A stretch of DNA of 64,000 nt from Thermoplasmata archaeon (GCA_020348445.1 CP070751.1:3713002-3777001); one strand, 5' to 3'. Positions 18,375 to 47,307 are shown, counted from the first letter of the stretch. Notes: generated from the letters alone by a model not told the origin. Program-made: numbers and translations.

Positions 18375-18583
18375 CTCAAAAGCGTGAAGTATAAGGGATA
18401 CAAATGGAGGAATATTCTCTGGGAATAAAAAGTGCTTTGGAGGGAACCTAAGCGATAATATTATATTTGACGATAAAGTTAATCATTCAAGTGAAGGGTG
18501 CTACTTAGAAAATGCATATCGCTGGTTTGCCATCGCCATTTCCGAGGCCTGCGTCCGTTTAACAGTAAAAGGAGGAGATTGTC
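18375..18583 (+). repeat. Repeat copy A (degenerate left part, A-type right end)
   Basis: AAAGCGTG..TATAAGGG; TTAGAAAATGC...GCCATTTCCGAGGCCTGCGTCCG...AGGAGGAGATTGTC. Confidence 0.85.
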
Positions 18584-18591
18584 GATTTTTT

Positions 18592-20130
18592 TTATTTTAC
18601 AGGGTCAATCGCCCTTATCCCATCGCTGTATCCCTCGAACTTTGTTCCATCTGTTAATTCTCCTGTAACCTTTAAATTGTAAGTTCCAGGTGACAGCATA
18701 TCCTCCACTTCGCTTCTATCGAATTTGACCATGAGTGTATCGCCTTGGATGTCACCCCATTCAGCTGGGATTGTATCTTCTAGTATCACAGTGCTGATAT
18801 CTATATCGTTGACATCATATGAGCTGTTCATTGTAATATAGCATGCAATCCATCTACCTTTGCTTTTTAAATTAAAGGTATTGGGATTTATATCCACTCC
18901 AGCAGAGATTGATGGAAAGGGGAGTAATATCTGTTTAAAGTAAATCTCATGATTACCATCTCTATAATCCGCCCAGACAACATGAACCATGTTTTCATTA
19001 ACTACGATATCCGGCGAAACGGAAGTCTCAGGGGCAACCGTAAGTCTTGTGTCAACACTCCATGTATTGCCTCTATCAAAACTGCTTTTGAAGTAAATTT
19101 CAAGACTCCCTCCCTTATCCCGGTCATCCTCCCATACTATATAGATATTATCGTTCTCTGCAGATATTGCCGGATCAAAAATATTGTGAGTAGAATTCGA
19201 GAGTTTAATATTTTTAACCCATGTATTCCCATTATCTTCACTATAGCTAAAATAAACCTGTCTTTTAGACTCTTTATGACCATAAACAACATAGATGTAA
19301 TCGTTATTATGAGCAATATCAACATAATAATTACTATTCGTTGGTGTACTAGTGATGTTAATATCCTTTTCCCACGTTACACCGTTATCTCTGCTTTTTA
19401 TATAAAAGATATCCGGAATCAAGTGTCCTGCTCTTTCGGTATCTCTCCACACTATATGTACATTATTTTCATTGACGGCTATAGCTGTCTCAATTGATAC
19501 ACTTCTGTTAGGTATTAGTATTTCGGGAACGCTCCAAGTAAAGCCGTTATCATTGCTATGAATGTAAGAAAGTTTATGATTTGAGTCTGAGTAGACAACA
19601 TGCAAGTTGTTCTCATACACGCCGATATCCCAATTAGGAAAATTGTCGTACATTATTGGCGTTATTGCGATCTCAGGGCTCCAGGTATTTCCATTATCTG
19701 TACTGCGAATATAATGTATTCTTTTATCATCGCTTTCACACCATATTACATGAATGTTACTTCCATTGACTGCTATTTTTGGATGTAATGCTTTTGTTGA
19801 AGGACCACTTACCAAGCAGATAGGAGGATTCCATGTATTTCCGCGGTCGCGGCTGTTTATGTACCATAAAAACATTTCGAGATATCCTGCACCTTCATTG
19901 TCGATATACGCCACATGGATGTTGTTGCCTTCTACTGCAATAGCTGGAAATAAGGAGCGTCCATCATTAAATGTCAGTCTAATATCCTCGCTCCAATCAC
20001 CTATATCAGTGGATGCTGTGGTTATTGAGATACTACTTAGCCCAATAGCAAACACAAACATAATGCTTAATAATTTTTTTCTCATATCTACCGCCCTCCC
20101 TCTCCAAAGAATAAATGCATCTGGAAGCAT
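18592..20130 (-). CDS. Secreted BNR/sialidase-like propeller protein with shared C-terminal domain (probable start 20085)
   Basis: Signal peptide; repeated S.D.G.TW; C-terminal NPNTFNLKSKGRW... domain. Confidence 0.8.
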   Translation of the reverse strand: MLPDAFILWRGRAVDMRKKLLSIMFVFAIGLSSISITTASTDIGDWSEDIRLTFNDGRSLFPAIAVEGNNIHVAYIDNEGAGYLEMFLWYINSRDRGNTWNPPICLVSGPSTKALHPKIAVNGSNIHVIWCESDDKRIHYIRSTDNGNTWSPEIAITPIMYDNFPNWDIGVYENNLHVVYSDSNHKLSYIHSNDNGFTWSVPEILIPNRSVSIETAIAVNENNVHIVWRDTERAGHLIPDIFYIKSRDNGVTWEKDINITSTPTNSNYYVDIAHNNDYIYVVYGHKESKRQVYFSYSEDNGNTWVKNIKLSNSTHNIFDPAISAENDNIYIVWEDDRDKGGSLEIYFKSSFDRGNTWSVDTRLTVAPETSVSPDIVVNENMVHVVWADYRDGNHEIYFKQILLPFPSISAGVDINPNTFNLKSKGRWIACYITMNSSYDVNDIDISTVILEDTIPAEWGDIQGDTLMVKFDRSEVEDMLSPGTYNLKVTGELTDGTKFEGYSDGIRAIDPVK

Positions 20131-20148
20131 ATAAAACCTTCTCTAAAA

Positions 20149-20336
20149 GACAATCCCCTCCTTCAAAAAAACGTACCGAGGAAGAAGAAGGCAAGAGCAA
20201 AGGACGCAGGCCTTCATGGAAGTTAGATTTGTGAGCAATCGGTACACTGAGGGAGTGGCAAAATCTTTATCCCCGAAGAGAGATAATGGTTTTAGGGATG
20301 GGGTTTAACGGCGACTCCCGAATATAAGCGAGGCTT
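20149..20336 (+). repeat. Repeat copy B (left TIR, B-type right end)
   Basis: GACAATCCCCTCC, GGACGCAGGCCT, AAAATCTTTATC/GATAATGGTTTT, ends AAGCGAGG. Confidence 0.9.
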
Positions 20337-20411
20337 AAGGTATGATCGTAAGTAAAAAAATACAGACTGCCAATAACAATTAAATCTAAAGAAAATACCC
20401 GGTGAAGAAAA

Positions 20412-21674: not shown

Positions 21675-21684
21675 AATGATAACA

Positions 21685-22004
21685 GATCACGAGCTACAGT
21701 GCGCCGAGCATAAGGGGAACGGCTTCGTTTTCGAATTTTGAAGAAATTTGAAAACTGAGATGGGCGAACGAAGCGAGCACATCGAAGGCGCAGGCAACCA
21801 AACGGTGTGGGGGGAAGAAGGTAAGAACAAAGGGCGCAGGCCTCCATGAAGCAAGGAGTAATCTGAGAGCACAGAATGGCAAAACCTTTATCCCTTTAGG
21901 AAGATAATGGTTTTAGGGATGGGGCTTAGAAATGGCATGTGAACAATAACCCAACGTCATTTCCGAGGCCTGCACCCGTTTACCAATAAAATGAGGTGAT
22001 TCTT
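21685..22004 (+). repeat. Repeat copy C (no left TIR, A-type right end)
   Basis: GCGCCGAGCATAAGGGG through GAGGCCTGCACCC and degenerate right TIR. Confidence 0.9.
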
Positions 22005-22117
22005 GGGACTAAATTCAGAATTAGTAAATTAATAGCCTTTAAGCCTATACTTTTTTTTATAGCAATTAATATATAATCATACTGTCTATCTATGAAGAGG
22101 TTAATAGGAGGATAAAA

Positions 22118-22624
22118 ATGAAAATTCCCGTGTTTGTTTCTTGTCCAACAACCTTAAATGATAATCAAGAGAGTGCAAGAAAAATTATTATTCATGAACT
22201 TGATGAATTAGGATTAGAACCCAGAGCATTGGGAAGAACGGATTATCCTGCAGATTTCCCCTTGAAGGAAGTTTTAGTTATTGCAAATCATTGTTCGGGA
22301 GGAGTTGTTTTAGGATTTGAACAATTTTCAACAGATAAGGGGATATGGAAAAGGGGGATGAAAGAAGAAAGAGTTCAGAACGATTTAATTGCATTTTCGA
22401 CTCCATGGAATCACCTTGAAGCAGGTATTATGTTTGCTTTAAGCCTTCCGCTTATTGTTTTTAAAGAAAATAGTATTTCTGGAGGAGTTTTCGATAGAGG
22501 TGTTACAGATGTATTTATCCATAAAATGCCCATGGGGGAATTATCCAAACAAAGTAAAAATGCACTAAGGGAAGTGTTTCTAAATTGGCAAAGGAAAGTA
22601 AGGGCACACTATTATGGAGATTAA
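22118..22624 (+). CDS. TIR/nucleoside-deoxyribosyltransferase (NDT)-like protein
   Basis: IPVFVSCPT; STPWNHLEAGIMFALSLPLIVF. Confidence 0.6.
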   Translation: MKIPVFVSCPTTLNDNQESARKIIIHELDELGLEPRALGRTDYPADFPLKEVLVIANHCSGGVVLGFEQFSTDKGIWKRGMKEERVQNDLIAFSTPWNHLEAGIMFALSLPLIVFKENSISGGVFDRGVTDVFIHKMPMGELSKQSKNALREVFLNWQRKVRAHYYGD

Positions 22625-22884
22625 ATAACTTATGCTATAATGGTTGTATTCTTTCTTTTGGATAATAACTTGCCTGGTTTTTTATTCCTGTTCTTTCCGG
22701 TTTTGAATTTCATGGTTTTATCGTTTGGAGCAAGTTTTTAGTGTATTACTTTCTATGGAATAGAGAGTTTTACTTGAAATATGCGATTTTTATATGAAAG
22801 ACGAAGTTGAGGAGAGGATAATGCAAAAGAAGTTTTACAATCAGAGGAATGCAACAAGACGACGGGATGTGAAGGCAAACAATA

Positions 22885-23946: not shown

Positions 23947-23974
23947 AATTTAATAGAGAATAATTTTATTTTAA

Positions 23975-24330
23975 GACACTCCCCTCCTTAATAAAGAGCG
24001 CGCCGAATATAAGGGGGACGGCTTTACCACAGGCACGCAAACCGAGACCAAAGGTCGAGGAAATGTGCAGTGCGAAGCACTGTATGTGGGGAAGCCACCC
24101 TTTTTCCACCGGCGCTTTTTATAATAGGGCCGATGGGGAGGATGAAGGTAAGAGCAAAGGACGCAGGCCTCCTATAAGCAAGGAGCAATCCAAGAGTGCG
24201 GAGTGGCAAAACCTTTATCTTAGCAAGAGATAATGGTTTTAGGGGTGGGGCTTAGAAATGGCATGAGGACAATATCCCAACGCCATTTCCGAGGACTGCG
24301 TCCGTCATAAAGAAAAAGGAGGGGATTGTC
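23975..24330 (+). repeat. Repeat copy D (full length, 356 bp)
   Basis: Both TIRs; stem 24159-24171/24291-24303; GCGAAGC hairpin insert. Confidence 0.93.
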
Positions 24331-24422
24331 GATAATAAATAATTTACATGTGTAATTATATAAAAATGCTTAAATCTCATCAAATTAATATAAGATAGGA
24401 TTTTAAATTTAGGAGGAAGAAA

Positions 24423-25145: not shown

Positions 25146-25188
25146 AAAAACAAAGGAAAATGAGGATAGATAAAATAAGGAAATATTT

Positions 25189-25265: not shown

Positions 25266-25340
25266 AAACATATATTGTAAAATAGCAATTAATTTATATC
25301 CATTTATCTGATATATAAGAAACATATTAGGAGGGAAAAT

Positions 25341-25591
25341 ATGAAAATTCCTGTGTTTGTATCATGCCCAACTATGTTGAATAATAATCAAGAGAACGCA
25401 AGAGAAATAATTATTCATGAACTTGACGAATTAGGATTAGAGCCAAGGGCATTGGGTAGAACTGATTACCCAACAGATTTCCCTCTGATATCGCTGGTTA
25501 CGATAGGATTGAATATCAAAGTATAGTTGAGTTTAAAGAGTTGCTAGATTTAAAATTTAAAAAATTTGTAAAAGAATTTATAAGGGTATAG
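25341..25591 (+). pseudogene. Truncated copy of the 22118 gene joined out of frame to an NDT-like C-terminus
   Basis: About 48 codons near-identical to 22118; PSDIAGYDRIEY in another frame from 25481. Confidence 0.75.
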
Positions 25592-25699
25592 AATATTATC
25601 GGTAATTGGATTTCGGATAGCAATCATATTTCCTTGAGGTAAATTAATATGTTTATTGCAATTGCATAATCATATATTAGCCTTATCAGAGGAAGACAT

Positions 25700-26746: not shown

Positions 26747-26809
26747 TAAGGAAGTCGATGATACGCTCTGATTTTCCTCTCATCTACTTATAAAGCGCAT
26801 CAATATAAA

Positions 26810-27215
26810 GACAATCCTCTCCTAATATAAAGCGTGCCGAGCATAAGGGGGACGGCTTCGTTTTCGAATTTTGAAGAAATTTGAAAACTAAGTGGGCGAG
26901 CGAAGCGAGACCACGGAGGCGCAGGCACAAGACGGTCTGGGGAGGAAGAAGGTAAGTGCAAAGGACGCAGGCCTCCGTGGAAGCTCCGGCTGAGGGAGCC
27001 CGGTTTTCCTGGGCGAACGAGGGTTGCGACGAGAGTGGGCATTTAAATCTTCAGTGATGTATAATTATGGAGCCAGGAGCAATCGGAAATGACGGTAGTG
27101 GCAAAACCTTTATCCCCGTAGAGAGATAATGGTTTTAGGGGCGAACGAGCAGGCGAATCAAACAATAGCGTAAAAAGCCAGCGCAGTGAGCGGACGGGGC
27201 TTAAAGGCGAGGGGG
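26810..27215 (+). repeat. Repeat copy F (left TIR, extra modules, B-type end)
   Basis: All central modules present; ends GGGGCTTAAAGGCGAGG. Confidence 0.92.
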
Positions 27216-27277
27216 CATGTATTTATCGAAGGAGTTTGGCCTCGGTTCTAAAGTATAAAATATGTGGAAAAACATAA

Positions 27278-27949: not shown

Positions 27950-27963
27950 ATCATTTATAATAT

Positions 27964-28103
27964 CCTGAGCAGGTAGGGGATGGCCAGCACAAGGATATAA
28001 TGGCTAGGGGAGGTATAGGAAGGGCCAAACTCCGCTTGAAATCTAGATGCACCCTCGCCTTCGATGCGTGAGCTATTTATAGCGACGCAAGCGACTGTGG
28101 AAG
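27964..28103 (+). repeat. Repeat copy G, left part (interrupted by IS110)
   Basis: CTGAGCAGGTAGGGGATGGC; GACGCAAGCGACTGTGGAAG at the junction. Confidence 0.65.
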
Positions 28104-28154
28104 ATGGTATGTTTAAATCCGCCTTCGAGATAATGTGCTCGGAGGTGCAGAAGT

Positions 28155-29138
28155 ATGCTATACGCAGGATTGGATGTACATAAAAACTTTTGTCAGGCCA
28201 TAGTAATGACAAAAGGAGGTAAAGTTGTAAAAGAAGATAAGATAGGAACGGAGCAGGAAGATATCGAAGAATTCTTTTATGGGTTGAAGAATGTAAGAAT
28301 TGCGTTTGAGGCATCGATGTATTATGAGTATGTCTACGAAATACTCAATGGATTGGGATATGAAGTATCTCTATCCCATTCATTAAAGACAAGGCTGATA
28401 GCCGAGTCAAGGATAAAGACAGATAAGATCGATGCAAAGGCACTAGCAGATTTGTTACGAGCAGATCCATTGCCAACATCTTATATCCCGCCTGAAGATA
28501 TTCGTAAAGTGAGACATTTAGTCCGTCATAGGATATTCTTAGGAAGACACCGGACCAAATTGAAGAACCATATATATTCAGAGTTGAACCATAGAAACTT
28601 GAAGTTCTGCGGTCCTGATGTGTTCACCAGGGCTGGTATGAAATGGTTGCAGGGATTAAATATCCCAGCAATTAATTCCTACTTGGTAATTTTAGATGCG
28701 GTATTAAATGAAGTAAAATCTGTAGAGTTGAAGATAAAGATTGAAGGTATGAAATATGATGAAGTAAGGTTGTTGAGCACTATACCGGGAATAGGAGTAT
28801 ATTCTGCATTGATAATCCTTTCAGAGATAGGAGACATAAATCGGTTCAGCTCTGAAGAGAAATTGTACTCCTATGCTGGAATGATACCTAGAGTCCATCA
28901 ATCTGGCGATAGTAGTTATCAAGGTAGAATCACGAAGGAGGGTTCTAAACACCTTAGATGGATCTTAGTAGAAGCACTCCGAATCCATATTCAATGTGCA
29001 CCAGATAGTAAGGTCACTCGTTATTATTATCGTCTCAAAAAGAAGAAACCAGGTAATGTTGCTACTATGGCAGGAGCAAGAAAGCTTCTTCAAGTGATTT
29101 ATCATATGTTGAAAAATCAGGATGAATATCGAGGTTAG
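28155..29138 (+). CDS. IS110-family recombinase/transposase
   Basis: DEDD motifs GLDVH, FEAS, KTDKIDA; SYAGMIPRVHQSG. Confidence 0.95.
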   Translation: MLYAGLDVHKNFCQAIVMTKGGKVVKEDKIGTEQEDIEEFFYGLKNVRIAFEASMYYEYVYEILNGLGYEVSLSHSLKTRLIAESRIKTDKIDAKALADLLRADPLPTSYIPPEDIRKVRHLVRHRIFLGRHRTKLKNHIYSELNHRNLKFCGPDVFTRAGMKWLQGLNIPAINSYLVILDAVLNEVKSVELKIKIEGMKYDEVRLLSTIPGIGVYSALIILSEIGDINRFSSEEKLYSYAGMIPRVHQSGDSSYQGRITKEGSKHLRWILVEALRIHIQCAPDSKVTRYYYRLKKKKPGNVATMAGARKLLQVIYHMLKNQDEYRG

Positions 29139-29265
29139 ATGTGCAGACCTTGAGGCGGAGCTTGCGGCATTGCGACCGCCCGTGGAAGATTAAGGTGCAC
29201 ATCTAACCAAGGACGAAGCAGCCATATTGCGGCACTATGACCGCGAATAGGAGCATGTCATAAGT
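29137..29265 (+). ncRNA. Predicted bridge/seek RNA with target- and donor-binding loops
   Basis: Two parallel units guide-GCGG-CA(N4)GA-CCGC-guide; first matches the target, second partly matches the circle junction. Confidence 0.75.
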
Positions 29266-29321
29266 GATATATACAAACGAAAATAATAAGGTATCGTAAA
29301 TTCGGGCGGATTTCACATAGA

Positions 29322-29598
29322 AGCTCCGCCCGAGAGAGTCGACGGGGCGAGCGAGGGGTTGCGACCGGCGAATATATTTGGCGACACAGGGAGCAATTCG
29401 AGTGTTCGAGGTCAGATTTTATGATCGACGCCTCGATATTCCGGACGGAGTGGCCGAAGTGGTTATATGTGATTAATGTCATAGCGGAGAGGGATACAAG
29501 CAAAGTCCCAGTTTCTGGGGCTTAGAAATGGCATGTGGACATGTCCCAACGCCATTTCCGAGGCCTACGTCCGTCTTAAAAAAAAGGAGGGGATTGTC
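29322..29598 (+). repeat. Repeat copy G, right part (A-type end)
   Basis: AGCTCCGCCCGAG...GGGGCTTAGAAATGGC...AGGAGGGGATTGTC. Confidence 0.88.
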
Positions 29599-29676
29599 AA
29601 AACGATTGAGTATTTCGATCTTAAACAAAATATAAATGATGATAGATTATATCTACTTCTTAAGAGCGTGAATTGA

Positions 29677-31383: not shown

Positions 31384-31405
31384 CCATTTGTTAGTTGAGC
31401 AAAAA

Positions 31406-31747
31406 GACAATCCCCTCCTATTAAGAAAGCGTGCCGAGCATAAGGGGGACGGCTTCGTTTTCGGATTTCGAAGAAATTTGAAAACTAAGTGGGCGAGCGA
31501 AGCGAGACCACGCAGGCGCAGGCACAAGACGGTCTGGGGAGGAAGAAGGTAAGAGCAAAGGACGCAGGCCTCCGTGGAAGCTCCGCCCGAGATAGCCCGT
31601 TTTATTGGGCGAACGAGCAGGTGAAGAAAGCAATAGCAAAATGAGCCAGCGCAGTGAGCGAACGGGGCTTAGAAACGGCATGAGGACAATATCCCAACGA
31701 CATTTCCGAGGCCTGCGTCCGTCTAAAAGAAAATGGAGGGGAATGTC
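31406..31747 (+). repeat. Repeat copy H (full length, 342 bp; contains an empty IS target)
   Basis: Both TIRs; perfect stem 31560-31572/31708-31720. Confidence 0.93.
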
Positions 31748-31778
31748 GAAAACTTTTAAAAAGGTTTAAATATGAGCG

Positions 31779-33011: not shown

Positions 33012-33040
33012 TTCTATTATAATTAATGGAATGAGGGAAA

Positions 33041-33312
33041 GACAATCCTGTGCTGCTTTTTAGCGTGCTGAGGAAGAAGGGGGACGGCTTCACCGCAGGC
33101 ACAAAGACAGGTTTGGTGGAGGAAGAAGGTAAGAGCAAAAGACGCAGGCCTCCGTTAAGAAAGGAGCAATCCGAAAGAACAGAGAGGCAAAACCTTTATC
33201 CTCTTAGAGAGATAATGGTTTTAGGGGTAGGGCTTAGAAATGGGATATTGGCAATACCAAACCCCATTTCCAGGTCAAAGGCCATTTTTCAAAAGAAGAA
33301 AGGGAGAAGTTT
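33041..33312 (+). repeat. Repeat copy I (degenerate full length)
   Basis: All core modules; compensatory GAAATGGG/CCCATTTC. Confidence 0.88.
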
Positions 33313-34915: not shown

Positions 34916-34984
34916 TACGACACTTAATAATGAAAGAAGAAATAGATTGGCGGACATGATTTAGCAATGAATAGATTACAAGCA

Positions 34985-35150
34985 GAAAGGACGGAGTACC
35001 AAAACCTTTATCCTCGTAAGGGCTACCAAAGGTGCCCAAAATTTACCCCAGGGCTTTTTAAGCAACAATGGGAAAGATTTAAAAAGGGCTGAGAGGGATA
35101 ATGGTTTTAGGGGTGGGGCTTAAGGAGACACCCGAAATAAAGCGAGGCTG
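34985..35150 (+). repeat. Repeat copy J (middle module with loop insertion, B-type end)
   Basis: AAAACCTTTATC...GATAATGGTTTTAGGGGTGGGGCTTAAGG...AAGCGAGG. Confidence 0.85.
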
Positions 35151-35202
35151 GAGGCAAAAATAATAGTGACAATTGGAGAAACGTGCCAAAATAATAAAAT
35201 AA

Positions 35203-37235: not shown

Positions 37236-37353
37236 ACTACGATCTCTAGCGTGTCGAGCATAAGGGATAAGGCTTAGAAATGGCATATTGATGTATAGCT
37301 GAATGTCATTTCCGAGGCCTGCGTCCGTCTAAAAGTAAAAGGAGGGGATTGTC
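37236..37353 (+). repeat. Repeat copy K (central modules absent, A-type end)
   Basis: GCGTGTCGAGCATAAGGG joined almost directly to GGCTTAGAAATGGC...GGGGATTGTC. Confidence 0.9.
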
Positions 37354-37401
37354 CGAAAAATATATTGTGAAAAGCGATATATTGACTATAAAGTGAATTA
37401 A

Positions 37402-37926: not shown

Positions 37927-37960
37927 GAATTGGTTGGCCTCGGTGAGGTTGAAAAATAAT

Positions 37961-38030
37961 ACAATCCCCTCCTTCAAAAAAGCGTGTTGAGGAAGAAGGT
38001 AGGAAGGTCCCAAGGAAGGCCGAATTATCT
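37961..38030 (+). repeat. Repeat copy L (left part only)
   Basis: ACAATCCCCTCCTT...AAGCGTGTTGAGGAAGAAGGTA. Confidence 0.8.
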
Positions 38031-38078
38031 GATCCTGGAACCATACAACAAAGCATATATTTCACAACTGCATCTCAA

Positions 38079-38633
38079 ATGACTATGCAACAAAGTGATG
38101 ACCCGGGATCAGAGGAGGTAACGTGGCAGGAAAACGTATTTCCTGAGAAAATCGAAAGAACTAACAGAAAGTTCCTTTTGTTTGCTCCTCCCATTGCATT
38201 TGTCGTCCTCTTCACCGTATCGGTACTGATACAGATGGTTGTTCCACACCCCTTATTTCCTTTCTTGGATCTTAGTTTGGCTAGTATAGGAGCGCTGATT
38301 TTATTTTTTGGACCTTATACTGGCTCAAGAAAATTGATAGAAAGAATAGGTTTGACAGAAAATGGTTTTTATGTTGTTGATAGGGCTAAAAGAAAATGGT
38401 TCATCGGCTGGACAGACATATTTTCGATTGAAAAAAGTTATAACGAGATTTACGTTTTGCATTACTATAAAAAGGGAGAAGGGGTTGCATTTGCTCCCTT
38501 GGCTCTTATGGGATACATCGCTTTGGATTTAAAGGACCAATGGGAGGATCAATTGAAGGTTCTTGAGGAAACAACGATTAAGGAGTTAAAGGAAAATGAA
38601 AAGAGGAAAGCGCATATATCAGAGCTGGCTTAA
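38079..38633 (+). CDS. Two-TM hypothetical membrane protein
   Basis: Two helices then a PH-like soluble part. Confidence 0.6.
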   Translation: MTMQQSDDPGSEEVTWQENVFPEKIERTNRKFLLFAPPIAFVVLFTVSVLIQMVVPHPLFPFLDLSLASIGALILFFGPYTGSRKLIERIGLTENGFYVVDRAKRKWFIGWTDIFSIEKSYNEIYVLHYYKKGEGVAFAPLALMGYIALDLKDQWEDQLKVLEETTIKELKENEKRKAHISELA

Positions 38634-39057
38634 GGAGCGAAAGAAAACTCAAACCTTTTCAAGACGATTTATTGCATTTTGTTGGATCGTATGTCCCGTC
38701 CTCGGAATTATCTCTATGCAAGGCAGCGGTTATTCATTTGTCACCATATTTTTTTCCTTGATGGCACTTGTTTATTTGACGGTAGGGACAATATTCGTTC
38801 TATATGGAAGTAAGGAGCTTTGTATCTATGAAAACGGCATCTTGATCCCATACGGTTTAACTAGGAAATTTTTAAAATTCTCGGTTATATCGAAAATAAA
38901 ACTTAACACCACCTCCCAGTCCTTTGTGCCGGAAATTGATATCGTCTTGGATGAGAGAGATGTGGTTAAATATAAAAAAACATTAATCCACGAGTGGAAA
39001 GCTTTCTACAAAACGATGTTGTTTGGGGTGGCTGACAAAGTACAGGTTGTGGAGTAA
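38596..39057 (+). CDS. Two-TM hypothetical membrane protein
   Basis: Same architecture as the upstream gene. Confidence 0.6.
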   Translation: MKRGKRIYQSWLKERKKTQTFSRRFIAFCWIVCPVLGIISMQGSGYSFVTIFFSLMALVYLTVGTIFVLYGSKELCIYENGILIPYGLTRKFLKFSVISKIKLNTTSQSFVPEIDIVLDERDVVKYKKTLIHEWKAFYKTMLFGVADKVQVVE

Positions 39058-39060
39058 TTA

Positions 39061-39160
39061 CGAGGGTTTTTTAGGTGGGGCTTAGAAATAGCATGTGGAC
39101 AAAATCCTAACGTCATTTCCGAGGCCTGCGTACGTTTGAAAGTAAAAGGAGGGGATTGGC
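39061..39160 (+). repeat. Repeat copy M (right part only)
   Basis: GGGGCTTAGAAATAGC...GAGGCCTGCGTACG...AGGAGGGGATTGGC. Confidence 0.88.
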
Positions 39161-39326
39161 GATCTAATATGTCAGAGAAGTATATAGAATTATATTATAC
39201 TATTATACTAACCTCCAAAAATAAATTGCCCTAATTGTCATAAGATAAAATACAATTGTAGAAAAATACTTATACATTAAGGTAGATATAAGTACTAGCG
39301 ATTTAAATAGAAAGGAGGAATTTCAT

Positions 39327-40172
39327 ATAATTTACTCCGAATATAATCCAGATAAAACTACCAATATCTCCGATCAAATTAGATATCTTGGAATACATAT
39401 TCTTGGCTTGATCACACTTTGCCTTTTAATAATCATTCCCTGGCATCTCTTCCTTAAACCACTTTATGAAGGGCCATATTTGTGGTTTTATGTGCTCAGC
39501 TTTTCAATAACGACCTATCTTGTCGGTGTTGAAGCTGAAAGTACAGGTAATCTTGATACAATTGGAGGGTTTTATATGTTATTGCTAATGACTATATCAT
39601 GGAGTTGTATTATAATAAGCGGTATTATCGAGCTCTGGATTTTGCAGTGGTTTGGAGTTGCATTGACTTTTCTAACCGTTGGTATAGGACTCATCATCAT
39701 TCAAAAGCTTTCCAATATTGGATTATATTCTGAAATTCCTACTATTTTCATAGCTGCATCTCGCTATAGCTATGGGGATAAAGGGGAATTTTCTAACATT
39801 CCTTTTGAAGCGGAGATAGGAAAATACAATATGGACGATATTAAAAAGTACACTAAAATTCTTTTAAAATATGGGATTGCATTAAGGGTTACAGAAGATG
39901 CAGATTCTATCACGATTTATATACGAAAACCTTCCAATCTAGTGCGAACGATTCTTTTACCTGGATCAGTGCTTTTTGGACAATCTTGGATTAAAATAAG
40001 ATCTGATGGACACATTATTATATCAGTATCAAAAAATGCTTATGAATACTTGGACTCACCAGGCTTATATAATGAATTATGTAAGGCAATTTCTCGTATT
40101 ATCGACGAGTCCATAAATCAATATTATGCAGGCGATGAGCAAGGAGCTTTAAGAAAATTAGGCATTAAATAA
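39327..40172 (+). CDS. Multi-pass membrane protein; SD suggests an ATA start at 39327 (track start 39408)
   Basis: Open frame; GGAGG 8 nt upstream of ATA; several TM helices. Confidence 0.6.
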   Translation: MIYSEYNPDKTTNISDQIRYLGIHILGLITLCLLIIIPWHLFLKPLYEGPYLWFYVLSFSITTYLVGVEAESTGNLDTIGGFYMLLLMTISWSCIIISGIIELWILQWFGVALTFLTVGIGLIIIQKLSNIGLYSEIPTIFIAASRYSYGDKGEFSNIPFEAEIGKYNMDDIKKYTKILLKYGIALRVTEDADSITIYIRKPSNLVRTILLPGSVLFGQSWIKIRSDGHIIISVSKNAYEYLDSPGLYNELCKAISRIIDESINQYYAGDEQGALRKLGIK

Positions 40173-40177
40173 AATGA

Positions 40178-40331
40178 GACAATCCCTTCCTTTAAAAAAG
40201 CGTTCCAAGGCAAGAGCAAAGGACGCAGGACTACATGGAAGTTAGATTTGTGAGCAATCGGTACACTGAGGGAGAGGCAAAACCTTTATCCTTATAGAGA
40301 GATAATGGTTTTAGGGGCGGGGCTTGCGAGG
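40178..40331 (+). repeat. Repeat copy N (left TIR, B-like end)
   Basis: Central part nearly identical to copy B. Confidence 0.88.
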
Positions 40332-40363
40332 AAAGCGATTGAACTAAATGGAGATGTGCCCGG

Positions 40364-40798: not shown

Positions 40799-40801
40799 AA
40801 A

Positions 40802-41000
40802 AATCCCTGTTCCCAGAACAGGTAGGGGAAGGCTTCACTAGTCCGATAATAGATTCAGATAGGAGTAGCAATCCATGGTGAGCAAAATCTTTATCTCATA
40901 GAGGGATAATGGTTTTATGGATGGGATTTAGAAATGGCATGTGGACATTAACCCAACGCCATTTCCGAGGCTTGCATCCGTTTAAAAGGAGGGGATTGTT
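40802..41000 (+). repeat. Repeat copy O (degenerate left part, A-type end)
   Basis: Hairpin module, GAAATGGC/GCCATTTC, AGGAGGGGATTGT. Confidence 0.85.
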
Positions 41001-41008
41001 GATTTTCT

Positions 41009-42346
41009 TTATTTTCCAGGGTCAATCACTCTAATCTCATCACTGTATCCCTCAAACGACGTTCCATCTGCTAATTCTCCAGTAACCTTCAGATTATAGG
41101 TACCAGGCGACAGCATATCCTCTACTTCGCTTCTTTCAAACTTGACCATGAGAGTATCGCCTTGGATGTCACCCCATTCAGCTGGAATTGTATCTTCAAG
41201 TAAAACACTATTAACGTCTATATCGTTAACATCATAACCAGTGGGTAAATCGATATAACAGGTAATCCAATTTCCCTTTGATTTGAGATTAAGAGTATCT
41301 GGATCAATATCAACAATAGCTTCAATTGTATCATTATAAGAAGATGATGGGTACCTAAGGATTGAACTTCCTCCTACAATCAGAGCATATTTGCCATCAG
41401 GTCTCCAATCGACATCCCTAAGAAAGTCGATGGTATCAGTTTTCAATTCTATTAAACCTTCTTCATCATATTTGTAAACTCGCCCATAACCTCCAGCAAT
41501 TAAAGCATAACTTCCATCAGGGTTCCAATCGACATCAAATAGTGGAACCTGCATCCATACCCCTGGTGATGCTTCATAAGATATATTGCTATATAATTCT
41601 GTCAATGAAATACCGTCATATTTCCAAATAGAGCCTCCGCTTACCAGGAGTGCATAACTGCCATCTGGTTTCCAAGACACACCAAAAAATTGTTTTGCTG
41701 GTGTATACAAATTTGAAAATGTTGTTCCGTCATATTTTATAACTTTTTTCCCTACTATTAAGGCGTAGCTACCATCGGGTTTCCATTCAACATCAGAAAG
41801 TACGTTATTTACTTTATGAGCAATATGGAAATTAGACCCATTATATGTAATTACCAGCCCCCGTGGGTCCATATGATACCGATCATATAATCCGACAATT
41901 ACAGCTTGACTTCCATCAGGTTTCCAATCAATTCCAGTAAAAGCGTAGAATCTATAAAGGGTTCTATTATCAATATGTGTGTAATTGAAGGTTGTTCCAT
42001 TATAAACGTAAATCCTCATATCGCTTCCGAGTAGAGCATAACTACCATCCGGATTCCATTGACTACTGTAAAACGAATACATTTGATATTTTGCCCATAC
42101 CTGTGTATAATCTTGACCATCGTATGTATATGAAGTTTCACCAGTCATACCCAATAAGGCTAGGCTGCTATTCGGGCTCCAAGATACACTGTATAAGACC
42201 GGGGGGCATGGATGAGATAAACTCTCGACCTCCAATTCTGATTCAGGTGAATTACTCATTACATTCTCGTTTCCAAAGGAAAAAAAAACAAAAGATAGCC
42301 CCAATATCAATGAAATTATGCCATGAATTTTTGCCAACATTATCAA
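41009..42346 (-). CDS. Secreted WD40-like propeller protein with shared C-terminal domain
   Basis: W.PDG.YAL repeats; DPDTLNLKSKGNW domain. Confidence 0.82.
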   Translation of the reverse strand: MIMLAKIHGIISLILGLSFVFFSFGNENVMSNSPESELEVESLSHPCPPVLYSVSWSPNSSLALLGMTGETSYTYDGQDYTQVWAKYQMYSFYSSQWNPDGSYALLGSDMRIYVYNGTTFNYTHIDNRTLYRFYAFTGIDWKPDGSQAVIVGLYDRYHMDPRGLVITYNGSNFHIAHKVNNVLSDVEWKPDGSYALIVGKKVIKYDGTTFSNLYTPAKQFFGVSWKPDGSYALLVSGGSIWKYDGISLTELYSNISYEASPGVWMQVPLFDVDWNPDGSYALIAGGYGRVYKYDEEGLIELKTDTIDFLRDVDWRPDGKYALIVGGSSILRYPSSSYNDTIEAIVDIDPDTLNLKSKGNWITCYIDLPTGYDVNDIDVNSVLLEDTIPAEWGDIQGDTLMVKFERSEVEDMLSPGTYNLKVTGELADGTSFEGYSDEIRVIDPGK

Positions 42347-42470
42347 CCTCCCGGATTTTTATGATTTAATTAATATATCTTTGTAATACGATTTTTAAAT
42401 TATCCTTTTTAGATATAAATATATTGGCACAATCATCAAAATGTCAGCGATTATAATCTATTATAGCCTA

Positions 42471-42687
42471 GAGAATCCCCTCCTTAAGAAAAAGCTTGCA
42501 GAAGAAAGGGGCCCCTTCACTATATTGATGATGGATTCAGGGAGGAACAATCCGAAACTTCGGAGTAGCAAAACCTTTATCTTCGCATGACAATGATGGT
42601 TTTGGGGCTTGGGCTTAGAAATGGCATATCGCGGATTACAAATGACATTTCCAAGGCATTTCCGTTAAACAACAAAATGAGGGGATT
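42471..42687 (+). repeat. Repeat copy P (degenerate full length)
   Basis: GAATCCCCTCCTT...GGGCTTAGAAATGGC...GAGGGGATT. Confidence 0.82.
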
Positions 42688-42689
42688 AA

Positions 42690-43898: not shown

Positions 43899-43927
43899 GT
43901 TCGAAGTTGAATTTACTTTGAGCAGTT

Positions 43928-43978
43928 TGTCATTTCCAAGGTGTGCATCCATCTATAAGCAAAAGGAGGGGATTGGCG
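43928..43978 (+). repeat. Repeat copy Q (right-end fragment)
   Basis: GTCATTTCCAAGG...AAAAGGAGGGGATTGGC. Confidence 0.75.
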
Positions 43979-43985
43979 ATATTTT

Positions 43986-45380
43986 TCATTTTCCAGGATC
44001 AATGACCCTTATCTCATCGCTATATCCCTCAAACGATGTTCCATCTGCTAATTCCCCAGTAACCTTCAAATTGTAAGTCCCGGGTGATAACATATCCTCT
44101 ACTTCGCTTCTGTCGAATTTGACCATAAGCGTATCGCCTTGGATGTCACCCCATTTGGCTGGTAATGTATCCTCGAGTATCACAGTGCTGATATCTATAT
44201 CGTTGACATCATAACCATTTGGGAGGCCAATGTAACATGTGATCCATTTGCCCTTTGATTTAAGATTGAGCGTGTCAGGATCGATATCAATAAATGAAGT
44301 AATGATTGAGGCCCAAGGTCGCATAAGAGGATAATAATCATAATATCTATCGGGGTGAGGAATCAGAGTATCACCTATTCCATCACCTGCAATTGAATGT
44401 TTTCCTGTTCCGCTACCGTCATCTTCACCTGTATAATCTGACCAGTAATTGCCTTCTAAAAGAACAGGATGATACCAATTGTTTCTACTTCTCGAAGGAT
44501 CATCAACTCGGGCATTAAAGAAATTATTATGATATATGGTATTTCCCCTAGAACCATACCCTGTACATATACCCCAATCTCGACCTGAAATTGTATTATT
44601 CATTATTATATTATTATTGGAACGATCCCATAGATTAATATCAATGTCATTTGAGAGGATAATATCGGTGATTAAGTTGTAATTTGAATGATAAATCAAA
44701 GAAATACCTACAAAATTATCTATTACAGTATTATAGGCAACAGTATTGTTATTACTATAAAAATATATATCGATACCATAGTAATTATTGATTACTAGAT
44801 TATATGTTATAATGTTATTGTTAGAATATTGTAAAATAATTCCACATTTATAATTCCAGGCCGAGTAATTCAAAGAGATGATGTTGTTTGTAATAATATT
44901 ATATCTCGAATAGTACGCATAAATACCATAATTGCTGTCTAATAGCATGTTACTATAAATGTTGCATCTATCTGAATTTATTTGAATTCCTGCGTCACCA
45001 GTTAAAGAGCCACTTTTTTTGATAGTGAAACCAGAGACATTTACCCAATCTGCATTAATATTAATAACATCCCCATTTCCACCACCATCAATAACGGTAG
45101 TGATATTGTCTTCTCCTTGTAATGTAATAGTTTTATTTATGAATATATTCTCATGGTAATTTCCTGCCCTCACATATACGATGTCGCCATGATTTGCTGC
45201 ATCTATTGCCTCTTGAATCGTGAAATAATCATCAGGAACGACGATTAATGTTGCACTAACTATTGGGGTATATATTACAATAAAGAAGGATACAATCAAC
45301 AAAGCACATATTACAAAGCTTATTGCTTTTTTTCGCATTCTTACTCCCCCTCCATGAAAAATAAATGTATCTAGAGACAT
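43986..45380 (-). CDS. Secreted NosD/pectin-lyase beta-helix protein with shared C-terminal domain (probable start 45338)
   Basis: VPDDYFTIQEAIDAA; GNYWSDY; DPDTLNLKSKGKW domain. Confidence 0.85.
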   Translation of the reverse strand: MSLDTFIFHGGGVRMRKKAISFVICALLIVSFFIVIYTPIVSATLIVVPDDYFTIQEAIDAANHGDIVYVRAGNYHENIFINKTITLQGEDNITTVIDGGGNGDVININADWVNVSGFTIKKSGSLTGDAGIQINSDRCNIYSNMLLDSNYGIYAYYSRYNIITNNIISLNYSAWNYKCGIILQYSNNNIITYNLVINNYYGIDIYFYSNNNTVAYNTVIDNFVGISLIYHSNYNLITDIILSNDIDINLWDRSNNNIIMNNTISGRDWGICTGYGSRGNTIYHNNFFNARVDDPSRSRNNWYHPVLLEGNYWSDYTGEDDGSGTGKHSIAGDGIGDTLIPHPDRYYDYYPLMRPWASIITSFIDIDPDTLNLKSKGKWITCYIGLPNGYDVNDIDISTVILEDTLPAKWGDIQGDTLMVKFDRSEVEDMLSPGTYNLKVTGELADGTSFEGYSDEIRVIDPGK

Positions 45381-45398
45381 ATAAAACCTTCTTTAAAA

Positions 45399-45541
45399 GA
45401 CAATCCGCTCCAGCGTGTCGAGTATGTGTGGGAAGGCCGAAACACACAAACCTCTATAAAGCAAGGAGCAATCCGTGAGCACAGAGTAGTAAAACCTAAA
45501 CCCCCGTAGAGTGATAATGGTTTTAGGACTTAAAGCCGAGG
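45399..45541 (+). repeat. Repeat copy R (left TIR, B-type end)
   Basis: GACAATCCGCTCC...GATAATGGTTTTAGGACTTAAAGCCGAGG. Confidence 0.82.
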
Positions 45542-45587
45542 AGTGAAAAAAAGATAAGGTCACTGTATCCGATAATAATGGGCTTAA

Positions 45588-47057
45588 TTAAACACCTTTC
45601 CCATATAGTTTGATCATAGATGGTTCTTTAACAGATAATAACTTTATTAATGGTCTAAGAAATTGATGTCTTTGATAAAAATAATGCACCCCGGTTTTTA
45701 GGATGAATCCTTTAATGGATTTTCTTCTATATCTGTCTTTTACGATAAAAGATGTAAGTAAATATTTTCTTAAGTGAAATCGGAATATTTTATCTAGTAT
45801 ATCACTTACAAATTCACTATGGTCATACTCTTCGATGTCTATCACAGGATGAACATAATTCCAATTTTGGTAGTCCCAATCTTTTATCCATGCCTTGTTT
45901 TTCTTATAATATTGTGTCCATGGATAGGGGGTAAAAATATATGGCAATACCAAATCGGGATCCCATTTTTGAACAGTTTTAAATTTCATATTTAACGAAT
46001 TTTTTGTTTCATGTCTATCTCCTACAAGTAAGTTTACGATAGTCATGATATCGTGCTTTTTTAAGTAAGCGATGGCCTGTTTATTTTCATATACTGTTGT
46101 TCCTTTTCTTAATTCGTTTAGAAGATGTTGATCAGTTGCTTCAACTCCCAAATCAACAGTTACAATTCCAGATTTTTTATACAGGGGTAAATATTCTTTA
46201 TCTCGAACTACATCAGTTACCCTTAAGTTTAAAGTCATATGTATTTGGAGATTGCGATTCACTACATCTTTTAGCATCTGAAGCCATAATTTCTGGTCAA
46301 AAGACGGATTTTCATCAGCAAAGAAGAAATGGGTCACACCGAATTTTTTGTTTAATAGTTCCAATTCATCAACAAATAGTTTTGGATTCCTTGTCCTGTA
46401 CTTTTTCCAGAAATTCCATTGACCGCAAAACTCACAAAAAAATGGACATCCTCTTGAAAAACCAACCACAGCCATCTTTTCATTTGTGACTTTGTTTTTA
46501 TAAATTTCCCAGTCTTCTATTAGCTCCCAAGCTGCACGCACAGAATCTAGATCTTTTATGGGCTCTCTGTCAGGATTCACTACATAACCTTTTTCATTTC
46601 TCCAAACCAACCCATTGATTTTCTCCATGGAACGATTTCCATTTATAGCCTTTAACAATTCCTTGATAGTTATCTCACCTTCTCCTCTTATTATATAATC
46701 AACCTCTGGATGTTCCTTCATGATCTGATGAAATGTGAATGTTGGATGTATTCCCCCTAAAACCGTTATGATCTTACTGTTAACTTTCTTTGCATTTTTT
46801 AAGATAGCAAGTGATTTTTTAATGGTGGCAGTAGATGCACTACTGCCAGTGCACACCATATCAGGTCTTCCTTTTTTTAATATCGAAATAATATCCCTTA
46901 TTGAAAGGTTCTTTTTGGAAGCATCGATTAACTTCACATTATGATTATCATCAATCAATGCACCGCCGACATACAAAAGCCCCAAGGGAGTCATTGTGCC
47001 AACAGGAATCTCAGCCCCACCACAATGATAATTAGGATTTATAAGCAAGATTCGGAT
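45588..47057 (-). CDS. BchE-like cobalamin-dependent radical SAM enzyme; likely start at ATC 47057
   Basis: PNYHCGGAEI; SRGCPFFCEFCGQWNFW. Confidence 0.8.
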   Translation of the reverse strand: MRILLINPNYHCGGAEIPVGTMTPLGLLYVGGALIDDNHNVKLIDASKKNLSIRDIISILKKGRPDMVCTGSSASTATIKKSLAILKNAKKVNSKIITVLGGIHPTFTFHQIMKEHPEVDYIIRGEGEITIKELLKAINGNRSMEKINGLVWRNEKGYVVNPDREPIKDLDSVRAAWELIEDWEIYKNKVTNEKMAVVGFSRGCPFFCEFCGQWNFWKKYRTRNPKLFVDELELLNKKFGVTHFFFADENPSFDQKLWLQMLKDVVNRNLQIHMTLNLRVTDVVRDKEYLPLYKKSGIVTVDLGVEATDQHLLNELRKGTTVYENKQAIAYLKKHDIMTIVNLLVGDRHETKNSLNMKFKTVQKWDPDLVLPYIFTPYPWTQYYKKNKAWIKDWDYQNWNYVHPVIDIEEYDHSEFVSDILDKIFRFHLRKYLLTSFIVKDRYRRKSIKGFILKTGVHYFYQRHQFLRPLIKLLSVKEPSMIKLYGKGV

Positions 47058-47147
47058 TTATATCACCTTTATTCCTTATAGAAATAATATATACTATAAT
47101 TAAGAATTTCTAAAAGTCTCTTTGAAAGTTCCGAATATAGGGCAGAT

Positions 47148-47307
47148 GGCCTGCGTATAAGGGAGGAATATAGAAAGTGCAGATTCCGCAGGCCTTCGTG
47201 AAGTGAGGACCAGTTCGAGAGGATTGATTGGCAAAAACTTTATCTTCGTAGGGAGATATTGGTACAAGATGCGGGGCTGTTAATGCCATTCCATAATATA
47301 AGCGAGG
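47148..47307 (+). repeat. Repeat copy S (degenerate, B-type end)
   Basis: CGCAGGCCTTC; AAAACTTTATC/GATATTGGT; AAGCGAGG. Confidence 0.7.

What the first reader, a model, noticed from the sequence alone, without database searches (positions are those of the whole stretch)
18496..47307. Switch point after GGGGCTTA suggests cassette boundaries and chimeric sites
Seen: after (GG)GGCTTA the element continues either as A-type (GAAATGGC...right TIR) or B-type (..GCGAGG). In A->B, D->F, M->N and Q->R, a left TIR sits in a copy with a B-type end, so its complement lies only in the upstream copy across the gene. After B-type ends (B->C, F->G, J->K, R->S) the next copy lacks the left TIR. The paralogous genes at 20412 and 35203 share both flanks. 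Inference: the mobile unit runs from one CTTA to the next, and the full stem is restored on circularisation, as with chimeric attC sites. The (C)TTARRR junction weakly resembles GTTRRRY. Exceptions: P->Q, I->J, and copy C covaries within itself.
Basis: partly seen in the sequence, partly recalled or inferred. Interest (0 to 1): 0.8.

Follow-up and report, generated by a model that had tools for sequence, protein, structure and literature searches.

The report
Gene cassettes bounded at CTTA sites
A 29-kb stretch of an uncultured Thermoplasmata archaeon is a row of swappable gene cassettes that all begin and end at the four bases CTTA, probably moved by single-strand-DNA (IS200-type) transposases: an integron-like gene-capture array built from different parts.

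Summary
The window has 16 core sites (…CTTA). Ten are followed by the A module (hairpin h2, P2R, right TIR) and six by a B module (AAGGCGAGG-like). A right TIR at the start of a cassette predicts a left TIR at its end: 16 of 16 against 0 of 14, here and in sister genomes.

In five genomes of the genus plus 30 metagenome contigs, at least five unrelated left-flank types and six or more right-flank types occur in many combinations and share only CTTA. Homologous cassettes in different contexts lose homology exactly there. In 13 informative pairs, both neighbours were never conserved. A sister genome has the empty locus, with the aminotransferase next to hypC.

In-silico circular joints of the four "left TIR + B" cassettes are 5–15 kcal/mol more stable than the linear junctions.

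No integron integrase or attC was found. Intact IS200/IS605 Y1 (HUH) transposase genes, often as a/b paralogue pairs, sit inside such arrays in sister genomes. A relic lies in this array (22662–22712).

Best reading: cassettes are IS200-like "peel-and-paste" units that target CTTA. The enzyme assignment is inferred.

Earlier notes of this scan report the same kind of array on other archaeal DNA. My searches of the held paper library (not exhaustive) found no published description.

The parts
16603..17709 (-). Aminotransferase gene: conserved left flank of the island
   Evidence: Pfam Aminotran_1_2. Orthologues of 82-92% identity in G001-G004. In G001 it lies directly beside hypC, which is the empty site.
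18456..18585 (+). Junction 1: degenerate array-head site ending ..GCTACTTA (core at 18504-18507), then an A-type left end (h2, P2R, right TIR)
20146..20340 (+). Junction 2: right end with left TIR, P2L and hairpin h1, core GGGGTTTA (to 20307), then a B-type start
21696..22004 (+). Junction 3: right end without left TIR (m2, P2L, h1), core to 21928, then an A-type left end with a degenerate right TIR
22662..22805 (-). Relic of a Y1b-type IS200 tnpA: the first 17 codons (22712 down to 22662) plus its upstream region
   Evidence: About 81% identical to the 5' end and upstream region of an intact Y1b gene of G002 (L011). The translation reads MKFKTGKNRNKKPGKLL.
23971..24333 (+). Junction 4: complete site (left TIR, m2, P2L, h1, core to 24254, h2, P2R, right TIR)
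   Evidence: DNA fold -68.3 kcal/mol with nested stems.
26806..27220 (+). Junction 5: long right-end variant with left TIR, core to 27203, then a B start whose 15 nt pair with 28047-28061 across the toxin-antitoxin cassette
27964..29600 (+). Junction 6: right end without left TIR, interrupted by an IS110-family element (28104-29323), core to 29524, then an A-type left end
31403..31749 (+). Junction 7: as junction 5 but with h1 deleted between two direct repeats of GGGCGAACGAG; core to 31671, then A
   Evidence: 95% identical to 26829-27006.
33038..33306 (+). Junction 8: degenerate left TIR, P2L, h1, core to 33236, then h2 only (no P2R or right TIR)
34960..35155 (+). Junction 9: h1 with an insertion, no left TIR, core to 35122, then a B start
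37250..37355 (+). Junction 10: m2 runs straight into the core (AAGGCTTA to 37276), then an A-type left end
37957..38010 (+). Solitary left TIR remnant inside the cassette 37277-39084
39074..39163 (+). Junction 12: right end reduced to ..GGTGGGGCTTA (to 39084), then an A-type left end
40176..40340 (+). Junction 13: left TIR, P2L, h1, core GGGGCTTG (to 40326), then a B start; 91% identical to junction 2 up to the core
40835..41002 (+). Junction 14: h1 without left TIR, core GGGATTTA (to 40930), then an A-type left end
42469..42689 (+). Junction 15: left TIR, h1, core to 42617, then a degenerate A-type left end
43925..43979 (+). Partial A-type left end (3' arm of h2, P2R, right TIR) without a core: two cassettes fused
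45397..45545 (+). Junction 17: degenerate left TIR, h1, core ..GGACTTA (to 45532), then a B start
47162..47307 (+). Junction 18, the last recognisable one: degenerate P2L and h1, core ..GCTGTTA (to 47282), then a B-type tail
53861..54085 (+). hypC: start of the conserved right flank of the island
   Evidence: DNA homology with G001, G002, G003 and G004 resumes at 53821-53859. hypC is adjacent to the aminotransferase in G001.

Best explanation
The region 18.5-47.3 kb is an array of about 15 gene cassettes. It lies in a 36-kb island between an aminotransferase gene and hypC.

Each cassette runs from one CTTA to the next on the + strand. It begins with a left end of one of two kinds: type A (hairpin h2, P2R, right TIR) or type B (AAGGCGAGG-like). 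It then carries one or a few genes in either orientation, many with TATA-like AT-rich sequence upstream. It finishes with a right end: optionally left TIR, m2 and P2L, then hairpin h1 and GGGGCTTA.

Cassettes are joined and exchanged by strand-specific, site-specific breakage and joining at CTTA. This step is shown by comparison.

The enzyme is most probably an IS200/IS605-type Y1 HUH transposase working on single-stranded DNA ('peel and paste'). On this reading the cassette is cut after the flanking CTTA and after its own terminal CTTA, leaves as a circle whose right-end/left-end joint is the 'complete' element, and re-inserts 3' of any CTTA presented in the right context. That context includes the end of a resident cassette, which would explain co-oriented tandem arrays. 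This step is inferred from gene association and site anatomy.

In A-type cassettes the TIR and P2 arms pair across the cassette, or across the joint in the circle, and would bring the two ends together. This step is inferred.
For: 1. Sharp module boundary at the core in five genomes and 30 metagenome contigs.

2. At least five unrelated left-flank types end in CTTA: h1; an h1 variant; a long form; the TATA-rich array head ..GTACGTGACTTA; and ..GAACGAGGTCGTCACTTA. They combine with A and with several B subtypes in many combinations. Only CTTA is common on the left, as for a tetranucleotide target.

3. Homologous cassettes lose homology at CTTA.
- A toxin-antitoxin cassette in G000, G002 and G004 has three different upstream flanks.
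- G000 contig 1223303 against L013, window 27203 against L069, and window 40930 against another G000 contig show the same.
- L055 and L069 share the upstream gene at 89-98% identity but have different downstream cassettes.
- In 13 informative pairs, both neighbours were never conserved.

4. Bracket rule: 16/16 against 0/14.

5. G001 has the empty site, while G003 and G004 have different arrays at the same locus.

6. Circular joints are more stable than linear junctions for the 'left TIR + B' cases: -33.7 against -18.5, -75.5 against -60.7, -33.8 against -19.1 and -22.6 against -17.8 kcal/mol.

7. Hairpin h1 shows compensatory changes at 4 pairs (53 cells, 0 of 500 shuffles reach the observed value).

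8. Y1 transposase genes.
- 11 of 17 PF01797 matches in G002 and 5 of 8 in G003 lie on element-bearing contigs, which I estimate make up about 4% of G002.
- They come as a/b paralogue pairs, both with HUH and the catalytic Tyr, and score as IS200 transposases at 102-123 bits against a cut-off of 55.
- In G000 one Y1 gene ends 133 nt before an array-head CTTA.
- A Y1b relic lies in this array.

9. IS608 inserts 3' of a tetranucleotide and excises as a single-strand circle with a right-end/left-end joint (PMC5027513).
Against: - There is no intact Y1 gene in the window's array or on its 141-kb contig. In G001 and G004 the Y1 genes found are not next to the elements I fetched.
- The Y1 genes have no compact IS ends of their own and could be cargo, or IS copies attracted to hairpin-rich DNA.
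- B-type starts show no hairpin, so how they would be recognised as left ends is unexplained. Only one of five B cassettes in the window has an inverted repeat across the cassette.
- In A-type ends h2 abuts the cut with no spacer, unlike IS608.
- Nearly identical right ends (91-95%) follow unrelated genes. Two paralogue pairs share only the coding region. Gene content within brackets therefore also changes by other routes.
- The partner test for TIR and P2 (same junction against same cassette) shows no difference. Copy C covaries within a junction.
- The excess of G.T over A.C mismatches on the + strand is weak, 20 against 11.
- All genomes are MAGs. No excised circle or strain polymorphism was seen.
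Confidence: 0.55

Rival explanations
1. An integron-like system proper. A still-unseen tyrosine (or other) recombinase acts on the folded complete element as a long attC-like site and exchanges cassettes at the core. The Y1 genes are only cargo.
For: - The layout is cassette-array-like, with co-oriented sites and a conserved array head carrying TATA-like boxes.
- The complete site folds into nested stems.
- The MAGs are 80-91% complete, so an integrase could have been missed.
- Most archaeal integrons reported are arrays without IntI (PMC9668308).
Against: - The best match to the IntI model is 25.5 bits against a cut-off of 265.
- None of the PF00589 matches in five genomes lies on an element-bearing contig.
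- The left side of the site has no conserved arm beyond CTTA in three flank types.
- The core sits between two hairpins, not in a stem.
- There is no GTTRRRY.
Confidence: 0.15
2. No dedicated machinery. The element is a modular intergenic repeat, for example a terminator/promoter or protein-binding module, or a MITE family. It is spread and reshuffled by homologous recombination, gene conversion and deletions, and CTTA merely marks the border of two conserved blocks.
For: - Right ends that are 91-95% identical follow unrelated genes.
- There are deletions between short direct repeats: junction 7 against junction 5, and m2 joined to the core at 37276.
- Two paralogue pairs share only the coding sequence.
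- P2 covaries within junction 3.
Against: - New left/right combinations require crossovers inside a 4-8-nt overlap, which is too short for homologous recombination. Yet many combinations exist and breakpoints are exact.
- The TIRs bracket genes rather than the element in many junctions.
- All copies in an array are co-oriented whatever the gene strand.
- The island is absent from the same locus in G001.
Confidence: 0.15
3. Chiefly an RNA-level device. The arms flanking each gene pair in the transcript to stabilise, process or circularise the mRNA, and the hairpins are RNA signals.
For: - Inverted repeats lie just outside the coding regions on both sides, for genes on either strand.
- Hairpin h1 covaries.
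- G.T mismatches slightly outnumber A.C mismatches on the + strand.
Against: - The orientation of the element does not follow the orientation of the gene.
- An RNA role does not explain exact DNA homology breakpoints at CTTA or the empty site.
- No Rfam family matches.
- An RNA role could coexist with mobility but cannot replace it.
Confidence: 0.05

Closest known systems
IS200/IS605-family insertion sequences (paradigm IS608) and their gene-less derivatives (PATEs)
   Same: - A Y1 HUH transposase with HUH and the catalytic Tyr.
- Different hairpins near the two ends, and no inverted repeats at the very tips.
- The left end abuts a fixed tetranucleotide (CTTA here, TTAC in IS608).
- No target duplication, and a strict strand orientation.
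- The predicted circle joint (right end/left end) equals the 'complete' element.
   Different: - The units carry unrelated cargo genes instead of tnpA/tnpB.
- The right end itself finishes in the target tetranucleotide, so units stack head to tail into arrays of 15 or more.
- The right ends are long (up to about 400 nt) and modular.
- A-type units add TIR and P2 arms that pair across the unit.
- The transposase genes come as two paralogues.
- h2 abuts the cut without the spacer seen in IS608.
Integrons, especially sedentary chromosomal integrons and arrays without integrase (CALINs), including the archaeal ones of PMC9668308
   Same: - Long co-oriented arrays of unrelated accessory genes, separated by folded recombination sites that are alike within a genome.
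- The junction in the array is a chimera of two cassettes' sites.
- A conserved array head.
- A fixed chromosomal locus with different content in sister species.
   Different: - No IntI and no attC anatomy (R/L boxes, GTTRRRY).
- The crossover is in the middle of the site.
- Many cassettes have TATA-like AT-rich sequence upstream, and some genes point the other way.
- The likely chemistry is HUH on single strands rather than a tyrosine recombinase on a folded bottom strand.
REP/BIME repeats with REP-associated Y1 transposases (RAYTs; PMC3333891, PMC8266576)
   Same: A Y1 HUH enzyme is associated with many intergenic hairpin repeats.
   Different: - The proteins score as IS200 transposases, not RAYTs.
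- The repeats are 10 times longer, co-oriented, clustered in arrays, and bound gene-sized units.

Membership tests
Integron | IntI: a tyrosine recombinase with the integron-specific extra domain | tested here: not met
   TIGR02249 best match in G000 is 25.5 bits against a cut-off of 265. PF00589 matches in G000-G004 are never on element-bearing contigs. Caveat: the MAGs are 80-91% complete.
Integron | attC: an imperfect palindrome of about 60-150 nt with R''/L''..L'/R' boxes and the crossover in GTTRRRY at the foot of the stem | tested here: not met
   The site is 85-450 nt. The core CTTA lies between hairpins h1 and h2 at the centre. The likeness to GTTRRRY is 5 of 7 positions. The attC anatomy itself is from my own knowledge and PMC9668308.
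Integron | Array of cassettes separated by co-oriented sites, variable between relatives at a fixed locus | tested here: met
IS200/IS605 | Y1 HUH transposase (TnpA) | tested here: inconclusive
   Intact a/b pairs lie inside arrays of G002 and G003 and beside an array head in G000. In the window there is only a 17-codon relic. Action on these sites has not been shown.
IS200/IS605 | Subterminal hairpins at both ends, with no terminal inverted repeats at the tips | tested here: met
   h1 lies 14 nt before the cut and has 4 covarying pairs. h2 lies directly after the cut with an 8-bp near-invariant stem. The TIRs lie at the inner, gene-proximal edges.
IS200/IS605 | The left end always lies 3' of an element-specific tetra- or pentanucleotide; no target duplication | tested here: met
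   Unrelated left contexts share only CTTA. The rule itself is from PMC5027513.
IS200/IS605 | Excision as a single-strand circle with a right-end/left-end joint | not testable with these tools
   I could only show the in-silico joint and its stability.
IS200/IS605 | Compact autonomous element (tnpA with or without tnpB between the ends) | tested here: not met
   Cassettes carry unrelated cargo. Y1 genes sit in multi-gene cassettes without ends of their own. A classical 661-bp IS200 in G000 has different ends.
REP/BIME with RAYT | RAYT-type Y1 protein and 20-40-nt REPs | tested here: not met
   NF047646 scores 21.9-27.9 bits against a cut-off of 80, while the IS200 model scores 102-123 bits against 55. 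The repeats are 85-450 nt.
MITE | Terminal inverted repeats at the element's own tips, plus a target duplication | tested here: not met
   The left TIR occurs without a right TIR in four junctions of the window, and the reverse in six. The partner lies across the gene. No duplication is seen at complete copies.

The most novel reading that the evidence does not exclude
This is a working gene-capture platform of archaea that does what integrons do, but with HUH single-strand chemistry. A pair of paralogous IS200-type transposases, perhaps one for hairpin h1 and one for h2, cuts after CTTA. It excises any unit bounded by a left and a right end as a single-strand circle and stacks such units behind the right end of a founder transposon. 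The result is chromosomal arrays of defence, toxin-antitoxin and surface-protein genes.
Probability: 0.45. Interest if true: 0.9.

Novelty: new variant of a known kind. Interest (0 to 1): 0.78.

Why it matters
Integrons are the best-known dedicated system that stockpiles and shuffles single genes, and they rest on one enzyme family. If arrays like this one are built by IS200-type HUH transposases, gene capture into ordered arrays has evolved at least twice on unrelated chemistry. Archaea would then have their own route for rapid exchange of accessory and defence genes.

The sites are simple enough to test in vitro: a hairpin plus CTTA. A tetranucleotide-targeted, strand-specific system that carries cargo would also interest people who build single-strand DNA insertion tools.

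For annotation, the CTTA rule gives exact cassette borders in these genomes.

Tried and rejected
- **Rfam at gathering thresholds:** no family matched in the window. No tRNA genes were found.
- **Integron integrase and tyrosine recombinases:** none is linked to the arrays.
- **IS110 as the array's enzyme:** rejected. The one copy (28104-29323) is inserted at a different site (GTGGAAG|CTCCGCC) inside a right end.
- **The classical IS200 of G000** (two identical 661-bp copies): its ends are unrelated to the element.
- **Partner test for TIR and P2** (same junction against same cassette): mean mismatches were 2.73 against 2.75 for P2 and 4.74 against 4.98 for the TIRs, so it is uninformative because the arms barely vary.
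- **Inverted repeats across B cassettes:** only the cassette starting after core 27203 (ending at 29524) has one. The four starting after 20307, 35122, 40326 and 45532 have none.
- **Strand of folding from G.T against A.C mismatches:** 20 against 11, too weak to decide.
- **h2 covariation:** none, because the stem is nearly invariant.
- **Metagenome scan for strain variants of this array:** 30 contigs carry the site, but none is near-identical to the window's cassettes.
- **Literature searches** for HUH/IS200 cassette arrays in archaea: nothing found in the held library. This library is not exhaustive.
- **MITE reading:** rejected on TIR distribution.


Full report
**What is there.** Between 18.5 and 47.3 kb every intergenic gap carries a copy, whole or partial, of one modular element, always in the same orientation. 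A complete copy (23971-24333) reads in this order:
- left TIR (AAGACAATCCCCTCCTT)
- m2
- a variable stretch
- P2L
- hairpin h1
- core GGGGCTTA
- hairpin h2
- P2R
- right TIR (AAGGAGGGGATTGTC)

The TIR arms and the P2 arms are mutually complementary. With DNA parameters the copy folds into nested stems at -68.3 kcal/mol. The genes between copies are unrelated: BNR and beta-helix surface proteins, a PIN toxin-antitoxin pair, Fic, radical SAM enzymes, GNATs, WD40 and GH114. They lie on either strand. No Rfam family and no tRNA gene was found.

**The organism.** The sequence comes from an uncultured Thermoplasmata archaeon (record titles). The "single contig" genome is about 354 contigs joined by runs of 100 N, and the window lies on a 141-kb contig.

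**The switch point.** I place 16 cores in the window, ten followed by the A module and six by a B module. BLAST of a complete copy against the five genomes of the genus gives matches that end at the A of CTTA or start within the 8-nt core. The element is confined to that genus among 41 relatives searched. B is not random sequence. It starts A(A/C)GGCGAGG and then splits into subfamilies. In 30 metagenome contigs the count after the core is 29 B, 5 A and 2 other.

**Left and right flank types.** More telling, the left side of CTTA also comes in unrelated types:
- h1
- an h1 variant
- a long form
- a TATA-rich module ending GTACGTGACTTA, which heads arrays
- a module ending GAACGAGGTCGTCACTTA

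Each type is found with A and with B. The only thing all junctions share is CTTA. An overlap of 4-8 nt is too short for homologous recombination, so I infer site-specific joining.

**The bracket rule.** A cassette that starts with a right TIR ends with a left TIR: 9 of 9 in the window and 7 of 7 in other loci. A cassette that starts otherwise does not: 0 of 6 and 0 of 8. These loci are related, so the counts are not independent trials, but the rule has no exception in the sample. The TIRs bracket the genes, not the element.

**Homology breakpoints.**
- A two-gene toxin-antitoxin cassette occurs in G000, G002 and G004 behind three different left flanks, and the three-way alignment becomes homologous exactly at CTTA. 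In G004 the same cassette ends in a shortened right end..TTTTAGGGATGGGGCTTA, followed by an unrelated cassette.
- Further cases with the same behaviour are G000 contig 1223303 against L013, window core 27203 against L069, and window core 40930 against another G000 contig. L055 and L069 share the upstream gene but have different downstream cassettes.
- I also compared unique sequence on both sides of all cores. Ten pairs shared only the downstream gene and three only the upstream gene. No pair shared both, apart from overlapping contigs.
- Exceptions: the GH114 gene and gene 39408-40172 have paralogues elsewhere that share only the coding region. The latter sits in an A bracket here and a B bracket there. 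The Fic gene's orthologue in G002 lies at the end of a multi-gene cassette. Content within brackets therefore also changes by other means.

**The locus.** In G001 the aminotransferase gene (16603-17709 here) lies about 100 nt from hypC (53861 here). The 36 kb in between is thus an island. G003 and G004 have arrays with different cassettes at the same place. These start at a TATA-rich head module ending ..CTTA or ..CTTG, of which the window keeps a degenerate remnant.

**Circular against linear.** Energies in kcal/mol for the four cassettes whose array junction is "left TIR + B" are below.

| Cassette (ends at core) | Circular joint | Linear junction |
|---|---|---|
| C1 (20307) | -33.7 | -18.5 |
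| C4 (27203) | -75.5 | -60.7 |
| C11 (40326) | -33.8 | -19.1 |
| C14 (45532) | -22.6 | -17.8 |

The linear values are close to those with a shuffled right half. For cassettes followed by A the two forms are similar.

**Covariation.**
- Hairpin h1 has compensatory changes at four pairs (53 cells; 0 of 500 shuffles reach the observed value; slid controls are lower).
- h2 and the long arms hardly vary, so they cannot tell whether the selected partner is in the same junction or the same cassette.
- One B cassette family shows a change on both arms of an inverted repeat across the cassette: CAATATGGCC/GGCCATATTG against CAATGTGGCC/GGCCACATTG.

**The enzyme.**
- No integron integrase was found. No tyrosine recombinase lies on any element-bearing contig of five genomes.
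- By contrast, IS200/IS605 Y1 transposase genes are concentrated there: 11 of 17 matches in G002 and 5 of 8 in G003. Element-bearing contigs make up about 4% of G002 by my estimate from the contigs listed.
- The genes occur as two paralogues, a (about 145-165 aa) and b (about 139 aa), usually adjacent. Both have HUH and the catalytic Tyr. They score as IS200 transposases, not as REP-associated ones.
- In G000 one such gene ends 133 nt before an array-head CTTA.
- The window itself keeps the first 17 codons and the upstream region of a b-type gene at 22662-22805.
- The anatomy agrees with IS608. There the left end lies 3' of TTAC, excision gives a single-strand circle with a right-end/left-end joint, and the target is read by a guide (AAAG) next to the left-end hairpin (PMC5027513). 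Here the four bases after the cut in A-type ends are GAAA, nearly invariant. Position for position, GAAA complements CTTA as AAAG does TTAC. This is a lead only, because GAAA is also part of the predicted h2 stem.
- Because the right end itself finishes in CTTA, a new unit can insert behind a resident one. That would produce co-oriented arrays.

**What remains open.**
- There is no intact transposase on this contig.
- B-type starts have no visible hairpin.
- Right ends that are 91-95% alike follow unrelated genes.
- The strand that folds is not settled.
- No circle or polymorphism was observed.
- The Y1 genes might be cargo.

I therefore put 0.85 on CTTA-bounded, site-specifically joined cassettes and about 0.55 on the whole HUH model.

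**Known and new.** The held paper library gave no description of such arrays. The archaeal integron paper describes canonical attC and IntI and does not mention this group. Earlier notes of this scan report the same kind of IS200-linked cassette array in other archaea and on another contig of this genome. I used them as leads. One note describes a TATA-like box, hairpin and GGGGT..GTGACTT motif as the right end of an IS200-type transposon, and this matches the array head I had aligned.

Noticed in passing
window 28104-29323: An IS110-family element (DEDD transposase gene at 28155-29138) is inserted at GTGGAAG|CTCCGCC inside the variable part of a right end. A 73%-identical element occurs in metagenome contig L047. 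In G002 (reverse complement of L011) a right end is interrupted at the same GGAAGCTC position.
   Followed up: partly
window 18592-18900, 41009-41320, 43986-44290 (all on the - strand): The three minus-strand genes of the array share a C-terminal domain of about 100 aa (73-78% aa identity). The same domain ends more than 25 other surface-protein genes in the genome. The right TIR directly follows their stop codons, so the block 'A-type left end plus C-terminal domain' recurs as a 300-nt repeat.
   Followed up: partly
G000 whole genome: The genome offered as one 5.16-Mb contig is about 354 contigs joined by runs of exactly 100 N. Distances across these runs mean nothing.
   Followed up: yes
L011:12440-13787, L013:2931-3905, L012:1-1252, L023:7-927; G000 C1:4214534-4215446: Array-linked IS200 transposase genes come as adjacent pairs of two paralogues (a and b), both with intact HUH and Tyr. 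In G000 the b-type copy has HVR in place of HVH and lacks the C-terminal Tyr, so it looks inactive.
   Followed up: partly
window 25325-25488 against 22102-22265: A broken duplicate of the start of gene 22118-22624: 83% nt identity, and 82% aa identity over 55 residues.
   Followed up: no
window 37250-37276 and the m2 modules (e.g. 24002-24024): Module m2 (..ATAAGGGGGACGGCTT) resembles the core region. At 37276 it serves as the core itself (AAGGCTTA|GAAATGGC), and long B starts (..CGAATATAAGCGAGGCTT) resemble m2. These may be secondary cut sites or products of deletion between direct repeats.
   Followed up: partly
window 47308-53860: The last 6.5 kb of the island has no recognisable element. 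Gene 49135-49566 is conserved in the same position in G003 (69% aa identity), while the 1035-aa fn3 protein gene (50362-53469) is not.
   Followed up: partly
L022:7531-8560: In G003 about 1 kb carrying one gene is inserted just after the aminotransferase promoter region, with a duplication of roughly 60 nt of that region (..GGTGGTAAAAAGGGTTTTGGGG..). This looks like a different kind of insertion event at the same hotspot.
   Followed up: no
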